Source: a virus (lineage: Duplodnaviria; Heunggongvirae; Uroviricota; Caudoviricetes). Taken from it: a DNA stretch of 25,614 bases. A program made the position numbers. The stretch lies in IMG/VR virus record IMGVR_UViG_2671180631_000002. The stretch is one strand, 5' to 3'. Of this stretch, positions 1-3,000 are shown piece by piece (the stretch's first letter is position 1; each line of letters starts with the position of its first letter).

Positions 1-3000
1 GGTTATCGCTCGCCACGGGAATATCTGCGGCAGCGGGCTTGTAATGGGTTAAGTGATAACAGATGTCTGGAAATATAGGGGCAAATCCAATCGTCGCCGT
101 ATTCCCGTATTAACAGAGACCGTAGCCCGACGGGGAACTCCTTCTGCGCGAGTGTGCGGGAATAATCAAAAACGATGCACACCGGGGTTACCGGGTACAC
201 ATATTTCATCATGCCAGCGAGTCCGGTTCTGGCACGGAAGAAACCGGACGTTATGATTTAGTGCGGAAATATTTGTGTAGTGTTCTGTATGTTCTCAGTA
301 AAGAGTAATGAATTATCAAAGGTATAGTAATACCTTTTGTTTTCGTGGATATTTGTAATCCATCTGAAAACCCCTGCTGTAGCAAGATTTTTCCTGTATT
401 CGTAAAATGATAACTCTCCTGATTTGAATCCTTTTAAGGTGGCTTCTATAAGGCATTTATTTTTTGAAAATCTTACATTTACAACCTTACCCTGTCCTTT
501 TATTAAAACCGTATTATCGTTTTCAAGAACAAGATGAATATTCTCTGTGGCTAAATAGTAAATGTAATGTGAGACATTGTGACGTTTTAGTTCAGAATAA
601 AACCAGTGATAGTTTAAATTATTTCGCACTTTATCGAATATTTGTTTAAAAATGGCAACCTGAGCCATTGTAGTACCTTCCATGTGATATGAGGGGGCGT
701 AGTCTGCACGATTATCTAAATTGCTTCAATCTGGTCTAACCTGTTTTCTGAGCAATTCAGTAATGTCACTCTTTTCTTTGTTTGCTTCAGGCGAAACTCT
801 TTTTTCTGAGCACAGTCTCCGGCGGCAGGCTTCAATGACCCAGGCTGAGAAATTCCCGGACCCTTTTTGAACAAGAGCGATGTTAATTTGTTCAATCATT
901 TGGTTAGGAAAGCGGATGTTGCGGGTTGTTGTTCTGCGGGTTCTGTTCTTCGTTGACATGAGGTTGCCCTGTATTCAGTGTCGCTGATTTGTATTGTCTG
1001 AAGTTGTTTTTACGTTAAGTTGATGCAGATCAATTAATACGATACCTGCGTCATAATTGATTATTTGACGTGGTTTGATGGCGTAGATGCACGTTGTGAC
1101 ATGTAGATGATAATTATTATCATTTTGCGGGTCCTTTCCGGCGATCCGACAGGTTACGGGGCGGAAGGCGCGCGGGTTTTCGCTATTTATGACAATTTTC
1201 CGGTTTAAGGCGTTTCCGTTCTTCTTCGCCGTAACCTAATGTTTTTATTTAAAACACCCCCTGAAAAGAAAGGAAACGACAGGTGCTGAAAACGGGCTTT
1301 TTGGCCTCTGTCGTTTCCTTTCTCTGTTTTTGTCCGTGGAATGAACAATGGAAGTCAACAAAAAGCAGCTGGCTGACATTTTCGGTGCGAGTATCCGTAC
1401 CATTCAGAACTGGCAGGAACAGGGAATGCCCGTTCTGCGAGGCGGTGGCAAGGGTAATGAGGTGCTTTATGACTCTGCCGCCGTTATAAGATGGTATGCC
1501 GAAAGGGATGCTGAAATTGAGAACGAAAAGCTGCGCCGGGAAGTTGAAGAACTGCGGCAGGCCAGCGAGACAGATCTCCAGCCAGGGACTATTGAGTACG
1601 AACGCCATCGACTTACGCGTGCGCAGGCCGACGCACAGGAGCTGAAAAATGCCAGAGACTCCGCTGAAGTGGTGGAAACCGCATTCTGTACTTTCGTGCT
1701 GTCGCGGATCGCAGGTGAAATTGCCAGTATTCTCGACGGGATCCCCCTGTCGGTGCAGCGGCGTTTTCCGGAACTGGAAAACCGACATGTTGATTTCCTG
1801 AAACGGGATATCATCAAAGCCATGAACAAAGCAGCCGCGCTGGATGAACTGATACCGGGGTTGCTGAGTGAATATATCGAACAGTCAGGTTAACAGGCTG
1901 CGGCATTTTGTCCGCGCCGGGCTTCGCTCACTGTTCAGGCCGGAGCCACAGACCGCCGTTGAATGGGCGGATGCTAATTACTATCTCCCGAAAGAATCCG
2001 CATACCAGGAAGGGCGCTGGGAAACACTGCCCTTTCAGCGGGCCATCATGAATGCGATGGGCAGCGACTACATCCGTGAGGTGAATGTGGTGAAGTCTGC
2101 CCGTGTCGGTTATTCCAAAATGCTGCTGGGTGTTTATGCCTACTTTATAGAGCATAAGCAGCGCAACACACTTATCTGGTTGCCGACGGATGGTGATGCC
2201 GAGAACTTTATGAAAACCCACGTTGAGCCGACCATCCGCGATATTCCGTCGCTGCTGGCGCTGGCTCCGTGGTATGGCAAAAAGCACCGGGATAACACGC
2301 TCACTATGAAGCGTTTTTCCAATGGTCGTGGCTTCTGGTGCCTGGGCGGTAAAGCGGCAAAAAACTACCGTGAAAAGTCGGTGGATGTGGCGGGTTATGA
2401 TGAACTTGCTGCCTTTGATGAGGATATTGAACAGGAAGGCTCTCCGACGTTCCTTGGCGACAAACGTATTGAAGGCTCGGTCTGGCCAAAGTCCATCCGT
2501 GGCTCCACGCCCAAAGTGAGAGGCACCTGCCAGATTGAGCGTGCAGCCAGTGAATCCCCGCATTTTATGCGTTTTCATGTTGCCTGCCCGCACTGCGGGG
2601 AGGAGCAGTATCTTAAATTTGGCGACAAAGAGACGCCGTTTGGCCTCAAATGGACGCCGGATGACCCCTCCAGCGTGTTTTATCTCTGCGAGCATAATGC
2701 CTGCGTCATCCGCCAGCAGGAGCTGGACTTTACTGATGCCCGTTATATCTGCGAAAAGACCGGGATCTGGACCCGTGATGGCATTCTCTGGTTTTCGTCA
2801 TCCGGTGAAGAGATTGAGCCACCTGACAGTGTGACCTTTCACATCTGGACAGCGTACAGCCCGTTCACCACCTGGGTGCAGATTGTCAAAGACTGGATGA
2901 AAACGAAAGGGGATACGGGAAAACGTAAAACCTTCGTAAACACCACGCTCGGTGAGACGTGGGAGGCGAAAATTGGCGAACGTCCGGATGCTGAAGTGAT

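What the first reader, a model, noticed from the sequence alone, without database searches (positions are those of the whole stretch)
1159..1170. cosN core differs from the canonical lambda cohesive end while the terminase is lambda-like
The 12 nt after ...GGTTACG read GGGCGGAAGGCG here, whereas the well-known lambda cohesive end is GGGCGGCGACCT. The right half differs although the flanking cosQ and cosB sequences and the Nu1/A proteins look nearly identical to lambda. That could mean a non-functional cos in a decaying prophage, a sequencing or engineering artefact, or a genuinely altered cohesive end.
Basis: partly seen in the sequence, partly recalled or inferred. Interest (0 to 1): 0.45.

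Follow-up and report, generated by a model that had tools for sequence, protein, structure and literature searches.

The report
Natural variant of lambda's sticky end
This lambda-like prophage carries a naturally occurring alternative version of the 12-base "sticky end" cutting site, changed only in the half that lambda's packaging enzyme is known not to read, so it is almost certainly functional and fairly ordinary.

Summary
Window 1159-1170 reads GGGCGGAAGGCG where lambda has GGGCGGCGACCT. It differs at positions 7, 8, 9, 10 and 12. The surrounding cos site and the Nu1 and A proteins are almost identical to lambda.

It is not an artefact or a sign of decay. The same 12-mer occurs:
- in 158 of 5,426 complete E. 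coli genomes;
- in 14 IMG/VR contigs, four of them 100% identical to this window;
- in two deposited phage records, including PhiR46_1, which is listed with a propagation host.

It sits on at least six flank backgrounds. It is found with lambda-type and with phage-21-type terminases, and in N15-like phage-plasmids.

All changes fall in bp 7-12. Published genetics shows that mutations there have minimal effect on lambda terminase, and natural variation there is already documented for N15, phiD326, Gifsy-1 and mEp213. The left half, the CG dinucleotides flanking the nicks, the GGGTCCT cosQ motif and R3, R2 and R1 are all intact. Both ends of a chromosome come from the same cosN, so they stay complementary, and the calculated annealing energy is unchanged.

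Verdict: a genuine, functional cosN allele. It is a new member of a known kind and of low interest. A possible link with TerL T466I and a role as an end-compatibility group remain speculative.

The parts
1129..1135 (+). cosQ core, GGGTCCT, the packaging-termination signal 24-30 bp upstream of the top-strand nick
   Evidence: Identical to lambda in the alignment, and unchanged in nearly all (about 69 of 72) flank haplotypes. That these 7 bp are cosQ is my recollection of Wieczorek & Feiss 2001, not a tool result.
1157..1172 (+). cosN, the 16-bp nicking site: CG + GGGCGGAAGGCG + CG. The predicted nicks are before 1159 on the top strand and after 1170 on the bottom strand.
   Evidence: Sequence, homologous alignment to lambda. 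The CG flanks and bp 1-6 are conserved, and 8 of 16 bp are rotationally symmetric against 10 in lambda. The nick positions are inferred by homology and were not measured.
1159..1170 (+). Predicted 12-nt 5' cohesive end, GGGCGGAAGGCG. It differs from lambda at bp 7, 8, 9, 10 and 12.
   Evidence: The same 12-mer is in PhiR46_1 and YDC107_1, 14 IMG/VR contigs and 158 complete E. coli genomes.
1208..1223 (+). cosB R3, AGGCGTTTCCGTTCTT, the critical TerS (Nu1) binding site that positions TerL on cosN
   Evidence: Identical to lambda bp 50-65. The R3 coordinates are from PMC9026076. The spacing to cosN is unchanged.
1267..1282 (+). cosB R2, AGAAAGGAAACGACAG
   Evidence: Identical to lambda bp 109-124.
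1308..1323 (+). cosB R1, CTGTCGTTTCCTTTCT, the inverted copy of R2
   Evidence: Identical to lambda bp 151-166. A 1-nt deletion lies between R2 and R1.
1348..1893 (+). Nu1, the small terminase subunit, 181 aa
   Evidence: Three substitutions relative to lambda: K48R, A75T, L132I.
1868..3793 (+). A, the large terminase subunit (TerL), 641 aa, with ATPase and endonuclease domains
   Evidence: Four substitutions relative to lambda: T151S, D185E, L404R, T466I. Pfam GpA_ATPase covers residues 47-285 and GpA_nuclease covers 322-600.

Best explanation

Proposed mechanism:
- Nu1 binds R3, R2 and R1 of cosB, which are unchanged here.
- That binding anchors gpA at a fixed distance, and gpA nicks the bottom strand between bp 12 and 13.
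- A second gpA nicks the top strand before bp 1, reading the conserved left half.
- Because the bottom-strand nick is positioned by the cosB anchor and not by sequence reading, bp 7-12 are free to vary.
- Both ends of every packaged chromosome come from copies of the same cosN in the concatemer. The new overhang GGGCGGAAGGCG is therefore automatically complementary to its partner, and it anneals about as stably as lambda's.

The allele is a recombining polymorphism shared among Escherichia lambdoid elements: integrated lambda-like prophages, 21-like prophages and N15-like phage-plasmids.

Shown here: the sequence, the conservation of all other cos subsites, the intact terminase and morphogenesis genes, and the recurrence of the allele, including in a deposited phage. 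Inferred: the exact nick positions and the cleavage efficiency at this allele.
For: Sequence and conservation:
- All five changes lie in bp 7-12. Bp 1-6, both CG flanks, GGGTCCT, R3, R2, R1 and the cosN-R3 spacing are identical to lambda.
- Nu1 and gpA differ from lambda by 3 and 4 residues.
- Genes nu1 to I are all full length at 94-100% aa identity.

Recurrence of the allele:
- It is in phage PhiR46_1 (GenBank host ECOR13, part of the Brenes & Laub temperate-phage panel used in plaque assays) and in phage YDC107_1.
- It is in 14 IMG/VR contigs, four of them 100% identical to the window.
- It is in 158 of 5,426 complete E. coli genomes, at 153 chromosomal and 16 plasmid places.
- It occurs on at least 6 flank haplotypes. 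One of these (L012) has flanks identical to a canonical-allele locus (L091).
- It also occurs with a 21-like TerL that is only 65% identical to gpA.

Literature (PMC4669245):
- Many mutations in bp 7-12 have minimal phenotype, citing Xu & Feiss 1991.
- TerL-lambda gives equal yields with cosN-lambda and cosN-N15.
- Natural variants are N15 and phiD326 at bp 9 and 12, and Gifsy-1 at bp 8, 9 and 11. The flanking CG is conserved.
- The N15 end GGGCGGCGTCCG was verified directly. mEp213 and LLS carry GGGCGGCGCGCT.

Thermodynamics: the overhang has 10 of 12 GC, and a nearest-neighbour dG37 of -17.8 against -18.2 kcal/mol for lambda.
Against: - No virion DNA ends with this 12-mer have been determined. 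No phage record in the collection starts at this sequence.
- Five simultaneous changes exceed anything tested experimentally. The single and double changes, and the N15 allele, were what was tested.
- The plaque-forming status of PhiR46_1 specifically is inferred from its GenBank host field and the description of the panel. The primary paper was not readable.
- Some carriers of the allele are clearly remnants, such as E24377A, or have a frameshifted Nu1, such as Rb-50.
- The window's distal accessory genes look damaged: lom is truncated and stf changes frame. The early region of this prophage is not in the window.
Confidence: 0.86

Rival explanations
1. The changed cosN is a lesion in a decaying, non-inducible prophage. 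The site is no longer cut and the prophage is a fossil.
For: - The window shows some damage in accessory genes. lom ends at residue 159 of 199. stf switches frame between 22374 and 22661. tfa is interrupted.
- An IS1 end lies at 25532.
- Other carriers include a deletion remnant (E24377A) and a prophage with frameshifted Nu1.
Against: - The identical five-base change cannot be random decay. It recurs in 158 complete genomes on many backgrounds and in the propagated phage PhiR46_1.
- All essential packaging, head and tail genes are intact at 94-100% identity.
- The tfa interruption is a run of 55 N, which is an assembly gap and not a mutation.
- lom and stf are dispensable in lambda; laboratory lambda itself has a frameshifted stf (established knowledge).
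Confidence: 0.05
2. The 12-mer is a sequencing, assembly or engineering artefact.
For: The window comes from a draft-quality assembly that contains an N-run.
Against: Four independent IMG/VR contigs are 100% identical over up to 13.7 kb including cos. The allele is also present in many finished genomes from different laboratories, hosts and countries.
Confidence: 0.01
3. The variant cosN needs a co-adapted terminase. The substitution T466I, next to D465 in the gpA endonuclease domain, and perhaps L404R in this lineage, adjusts the nuclease to the new right half, so wild-type lambda terminase would cut it poorly.
For: Among distinct lambda-type gpA alleles, I466 accompanies the variant cosN in 11 of 13 cases against 8 of 30 with the canonical cosN (Fisher p = 7e-4, not corrected for phylogeny). 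Both substitutions lie in the Pfam GpA_nuclease domain, residues 322-600.
Against: - The association is not exclusive. L014 and FHI_NMBU_03 carry the variant with T466.
- The 21-like TerL that accompanies the variant keeps CWDTGG.
- I466 is common with the canonical cosN.
- N9D and S21A show a similar enrichment, as expected from simple linkage.
- Published data say that bp 7-12 are not read by TerL.
Confidence: 0.06

Closest known systems
Lambda cos (cosQ-cosN-cosB) with the cohesive end GGGCGGCGACCT
   Same: Same architecture and spacing. GGGTCCT, the CG flanks, bp 1-6, C11, R3, R2 and R1 are identical. Nu1 is 98% and gpA 99% identical.
   Different: Bp 7, 8, 9, 10 and 12 of the cohesive end differ (CGACCT becomes AAGGCG). 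There are 8 rather than 10 rotationally symmetric bp in the 16-bp cosN. There are a few spacer changes, for example lambda bp 35 A to C.
cosN of N15 and phiD326 (GGGCGGCGTCCG), and of Gifsy-1 and mEp213/LLS (GGGCGGCGCGCT): documented natural right-half variants of lambda-like cosN
   Same: The variation is confined to bp 7-12, with the left half and the CG flanks conserved. In N15 it is shown experimentally to be cut equally well by lambda TerL.
   Different: Those alleles differ from lambda at 2-3 positions and this one at 5. N15, Gifsy-1 and mEp213 have diverged terminases or cosB sites, whereas here the terminase is essentially lambda's own.
PhiR46_1 / YDC107_1, N15-like linear phage-plasmids with a lambda-type packaging and head-tail module
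   Same: The 12-mer is identical and Nu1/gpA are lambda-type, with 3-4 aa differences in gpA including T466I.
   Different: The replicon type differs (telL/telR, ParAB, protelomerase-type plasmid prophage). The left flank carries two substitutions (GGCAGGCTACG), and the sequence upstream of cosQ differs.
Phage 21-type cos in E. coli 504211 and E24377A prophages
   Same: The cosN 12-mer and its right flank are identical up to lambda bp 44.
   Different: cosB is 21-type. TerL is 82% identical to phage 21 and 65% to lambda. The cosQ-cosN spacer is different. Phage 21 itself has the canonical end.

Membership tests
Lambda-type cos site (12-nt 5' cohesive ends, cosQ-cosN-cosB) | cosN core with a conserved left half (GGGCGG) and a CG dinucleotide flanking each nick position, 12 bp apart | tested here: met
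   CG|GGGCGG......|CG at 1157-1172. The conservation rule is stated in PMC4669245.
Lambda-type cos site (12-nt 5' cohesive ends, cosQ-cosN-cosB) | cosB with R3 at bp 50-65 from the left end, plus R2 and R1 (TerS binding sites) at lambda spacing | tested here: met
   R3 at 1208-1223, R2 at 1267-1282 and R1 at 1308-1323 are identical to lambda.
Lambda-type cos site (12-nt 5' cohesive ends, cosQ-cosN-cosB) | cosQ termination element upstream of cosN | tested here: met
   GGGTCCT at 1129-1135 is identical to lambda and unchanged in nearly all (about 69 of 72) of the 72 flank haplotypes. Its identity as cosQ is from memory of the literature.
Lambda-type cos site (12-nt 5' cohesive ends, cosQ-cosN-cosB) | Adjacent Nu1/A-type terminase genes starting about 190 bp from the left end | tested here: met
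   The Nu1 ATG is at 1348, which is bp 190 of the predicted chromosome. Nu1 and A are 98-99% identical to lambda, and Pfam finds the GpA ATPase and nuclease domains.
Lambda-type cos site (12-nt 5' cohesive ends, cosQ-cosN-cosB) | Terminase actually nicks at these positions, giving 12-nt 5' overhangs in virion DNA | not testable with these tools
   No record with physically determined ends carries this allele. Virion end sequencing or in vitro cos cleavage is needed.
Natural right-half cosN variants of lambda-like phages (the N15, phiD326, Gifsy-1, mEp213 class) | Differences from lambda restricted to bp 7-12 | tested here: met
   The differences are at bp 7, 8, 9, 10 and 12 only.
Natural right-half cosN variants of lambda-like phages (the N15, phiD326, Gifsy-1, mEp213 class) | Carried by phages that form infectious particles | tested here: inconclusive
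   PhiR46_1 is deposited as a phage with ECOR13 as host and belongs to a panel used in plaque assays. The primary paper could not be read, and PhiR46_1 is not named in the papers that could be.

The most novel reading that the evidence does not exclude
The two cosN right-half alleles, CGACCT and AAGGCG, may be a maintained dimorphism that defines cohesive-end compatibility groups among co-resident Escherichia lambdoid elements. A chromosome that starts at a cos of one type and ends at a cos of the other would have ends mismatched at 5 of 12 positions and could not circularise. The allele would then isolate its carriers (lambda-like prophages, 21-like prophages and N15-like phage-plasmids) from mixed packaging with the common type. 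The TerL nuclease substitution T466I would be a partly co-adapted change.
Probability: 0.08. Interest if true: 0.5.

Novelty: new member of a known kind. Interest (0 to 1): 0.18.

Why it matters
It matters only modestly. It adds a fairly common allele, present in about 3% of complete E. coli genomes, to the catalogue of lambda-like cohesive ends. It is the most divergent right half seen here alongside an essentially wild-type lambda terminase. That is a natural confirmation of the published view that terminase does not read bp 7-12 of cosN.

Practical consequences:
- Tools that locate cos sites or re-orient lambdoid genomes by searching for GGGCGGCGACCT will miss these elements.
- Cosmid and in vitro packaging logic, and end-annealing assays, should not assume a single lambda overhang.
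- Chromosomes with one end of each type would be expected not to circularise.

Tried and rejected
- I looked for a phage record whose deposited sequence begins or ends at the variant 12-mer, which would be direct evidence of physical ends. There was none. Every record that starts at cos carries the canonical end.
- I tried to read the source paper for the PhiR phages (Brenes & Laub 2025) and the cosN survey (Vahanian et al. 2017). Neither is held. Only citing papers could be read.
- A full-text search for the literal 12-mer found only an unrelated plant paper.
- I tried to identify the window's exact source. No complete E. coli genome matches better than about 97% over the whole window. The species-representative scan found only Escherichia sp. 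E1V33, at 97.8%. IMG/VR contigs from isolate genomes are 100% identical, but they carry no organism names.
- I considered whether the allele came from the phage 21 lineage or from the GGGCGTCAGGCG lineage (L109/L133). Phage 21 itself is canonical, and the L109 allele differs at bp 6-7, so no donor can be named.
- I considered strict co-variation between cosN and gpA residue 466 and rejected it because there are exceptions in both directions.
- I first read the tfa interruption as decay, then found that it is a run of 55 N.

Full report
**Observation**

Window 1152-1176 reads GGTTACG-GGGCGGAAGGCG-CGCGGG, so the 12-mer sits exactly at 1159-1170. The pattern occurs once in the window, with none expected by chance. 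Lambda reads GGGCGGCGACCT at the homologous position, as do four other phage records that start at or near the cos end, one of them five bases into it. The variant differs at bp 7, 8, 9, 10 and 12, and C11 is kept.

**Surroundings**

A 320-nt alignment of the window with lambda's joined ends shows the following elements to be identical:
- the GGGTCCT element 24-30 bp upstream of the nick, which is cosQ by my recollection of the literature;
- the CG dinucleotides flanking both nick positions;
- bp 1-6 of the cohesive end;
- R3 (1208-1223), R2 (1267-1282) and R1 (1308-1323).

The remaining differences are scattered single bases and one 1-nt deletion between R2 and R1.

Nu1 differs from lambda at 3 of 181 residues. 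gpA differs at 4 of 641 (T151S, D185E, L404R, T466I). Every lambda morphogenesis protein from Nu1 to I has a full-length, stop-free counterpart at 94-100% identity. The essential packaging and virion module is therefore intact.

**Is the 12-mer an accident?**

It is not.
- An exact 32-nt search of IMG/VR found 14 contigs. Four of these are 100% identical to the window over 1.5-13.7 kb, so the same prophage was sequenced independently in several isolates.
- A 40-nt query in which every 28-nt seed word spans the variant patch hit 158 of 5,426 complete E. coli genomes. That is 153 chromosomal and 16 plasmid places, from humans, poultry, pigs, cattle, pets, soil and water.
- For comparison, about 3,400 genomes carry a lambda-like cos with the canonical end.
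- Among 50,697 phage records, two carry the variant: PhiR46_1 and YDC107_1.
- PhiR46_1 is deposited with ECOR13 as its host. It belongs to the PhiR series from the Brenes & Laub temperate-phage panel, whose members are used in efficiency-of-plaquing assays.
- I could not read the primary paper. Infectivity of PhiR46_1 itself is therefore inferred and not confirmed.

**Population structure**

I compared 60 nt on each side of cosN across 136 loci.
- The variant 12-mer sits on at least six flank haplotypes.
- The window's haplotype differs by a single base from flanks that carry the canonical end.
- L012 (variant) and L091 (canonical) have identical flanks and a 21-type cosB.

The allele also occurs in prophages with a 21-like packaging module. 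These are E24377A, a deletion remnant, and strain 504211, which is intact. Their TerL is 82% identical to phage 21 and 65% to lambda. Phage 21 itself has the canonical end.

PhiR46_1, YDC107_1 and plasmid records such as pG749_3 show the allele inside N15-like phage-plasmids (telL/telR, ParAB) that carry a lambda-type head, tail and terminase module.

The allele is therefore a recombining polymorphism shared across packaging-specificity groups. It is not a private mutation.

Other minor alleles were seen:

| Allele | Where seen |
|---|---|
| GGGCGGAGACCT | phage PhiR70_1 |
| GGGCGGCGACCG | IMG/VR |
| GGGCGACGACCT | IMG/VR |
| GGGCGTCAGGCG | IMG/VR (L109, L133) |

**Mechanism**

The published model is set out in PMC4669245 and PMC9026076.
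- TerS bound at cosB, with R3 critical, anchors TerL. The bottom-strand nick between bp 12 and 13 is therefore set by distance.
- cosN is functionally asymmetric. Many mutations in bp 7-12 have minimal phenotype, while the symmetric left-half changes are severe. For example, G2C lowers yield 10-fold and C11G has no effect (Xu & Feiss 1991; Hang et al. 2001).
- TerL-lambda gives equal bursts with cosN-lambda and cosN-N15.
- Natural variation is concentrated in bp 7-12: N15 and phiD326 at bp 9 and 12, Gifsy-1 at bp 8, 9 and 11. The CG flanks are conserved.

I verified the N15 end GGGCGGCGTCCG directly. mEp213 and LLS carry GGGCGGCGCGCT.

The window's allele fits this rule exactly. Both ends of a chromosome are cut from copies of the same cosN, so complementarity is automatic. 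The overhang keeps 10 of 12 GC, and its nearest-neighbour dG37 is -17.8 kcal/mol against -18.2 for lambda. Circularisation should therefore be unaffected.

Nick positions and cleavage efficiency at this allele are inferred and have not been measured.

**Rival explanations**

*Decay.* The distal accessory region does look damaged. lom stops at residue 159 of 199, and stf changes frame between 22374 and 22661. An IS1 end lies at 25532. However, these genes are dispensable in lambda, and the tfa interruption is a run of 55 N, which is an assembly gap. An identical five-base patch recurring on many backgrounds is not decay.

*Artefact.* This is excluded by the allele's recurrence in independent assemblies.

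*Co-adapted terminase.* Among distinct gpA alleles, I466 accompanies the variant in 11 of 13 cases, against 8 of 30 with the canonical end (p = 7e-4, not corrected for phylogeny). Residue 466 lies next to D465 in the Pfam nuclease domain. There are exceptions in both directions, and the 21-like TerL keeps T466. N9D and S21A show similar enrichment, which is consistent with linkage. I keep this as a low-probability rival.

**Novelty and verdict**

The kind of thing is known: right-half natural variation of lambda-like cosN. This specific allele is already present in public sequence records. I found no paper in the searchable library that mentions it, and I could not check the 2017 cosN survey.

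It is the most divergent right half that I saw paired with an essentially wild-type lambda terminase. I classify it as a new member of a known kind, of low interest.

The most novel reading still open is that the dimorphism acts as a cohesive-end compatibility barrier between co-resident lambdoid elements. A 2-bp mismatch already costs about 4-fold in yield, so a 5-bp mismatch should be close to lethal. I have no evidence that selection acts on this.

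Noticed in passing
window 24539-24593: A run of 55 N lies inside the tail-fibre assembly gene tfa. The window therefore comes from a scaffolded or masked draft, and the apparent internal deletion of tfa (residues 40-131 missing) is an assembly gap, not biology.
   Followed up: yes
window 25532-25614: A sequence that I recognise from memory as the left end of an IS1 element (GGTGATGCTGCCAACTTACTGATTTAGTG...) begins here and runs off the end of the window, about 750 bp downstream of tfa. Its identity as IS1 was not checked with a tool.
   Followed up: partly
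window 20501-20983: The Ail/Lom-family gene is truncated. It is 160 aa long and matches residues 1-159 of intact 199-aa Lom proteins (99% to E. coli strain 205, 83% to PhiR46_1). The last 14 codons of lambda lom lie out of frame at 20973-21014.
   Followed up: partly
window 21076-24421: The side tail fibre gene appears split. Residues 1-431 of an intact 1023-aa Stf map to one frame (21082-22374) and residues 442-1023 to another (22661-24418), with about 257 extra nt between them. This is either a real frameshift or repeat expansion, as in laboratory lambda, or a draft-assembly error in a repetitive region.
   Followed up: partly
window 1868-3793 (gpA residues 404 and 466): Two of the four gpA differences from lambda fall in the endonuclease domain. 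L404R is seen only in this prophage lineage. T466I lies next to D465 in the motif CWDTGG and is enriched among carriers of the variant cosN (11 of 13 against 8 of 30 distinct alleles). It is neither necessary nor exclusive.
   Followed up: partly
window 16663-20430: The tail-tip protein J is 1255 aa, against 1132 aa in lambda. It has about 100 extra residues between lambda residues 245 and 256, and its C-terminal two-thirds are only 77% identical. This suggests a different receptor specificity.
   Followed up: no
L147 (PhiR46_1, whole record), L140 (YDC107_1), L151 (pG749_3): N15-like phage-plasmids (telL/telR, ParA/ParB, large primase) carry a packaging, head and tail module that is 99% lambda-like, rather than N15's own terminase and single-R3 cosB. 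Sixteen plasmid places in complete E. coli genomes carry the variant cosN. The three such records inspected are of this type, and the rest are of similar size (36-63 kb).
   Followed up: partly
L109 5457-5468 and L133 (IMG/VR): Another five-difference allele, GGGCGTCAGGCG, shares bp 8-12 (AGGCG) with the window's allele. It has conserved cosQ and cosN flanks and a TerS-like protein only 35% identical to Nu1. tblastn found no gpA-like TerL in the 13-kb locus. It may be a satellite (PICI-like) element or a distant lambdoid.
   Followed up: partly
L145 (PhiR70_1) cos, locus about 3001-3012: The isolated phage PhiR70_1 (host E. coli C) has the single-change cosN GGGCGGAGACCT (C7A). It is another natural right-half variant and a possible one-step intermediate towards the window's allele.
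   Followed up: no
window 258-683 (-) and 726-959 (-): Two small minus-strand genes lie upstream of cos, DUF1398 (YbcV-like, 141 aa) and DUF3950 (77 aa). They occupy the position that lambda fills with bor and lambdap78, and the same pair is annotated in PhiR70_1.
   Followed up: no
window 1193: There is an A to C change at lambda bp 35 (GAAAATT becomes GACAATT), in the spacer between cosN and R3. Among the 136 loci compared, it is found only in the six loci that share this window's flank haplotype.
   Followed up: no
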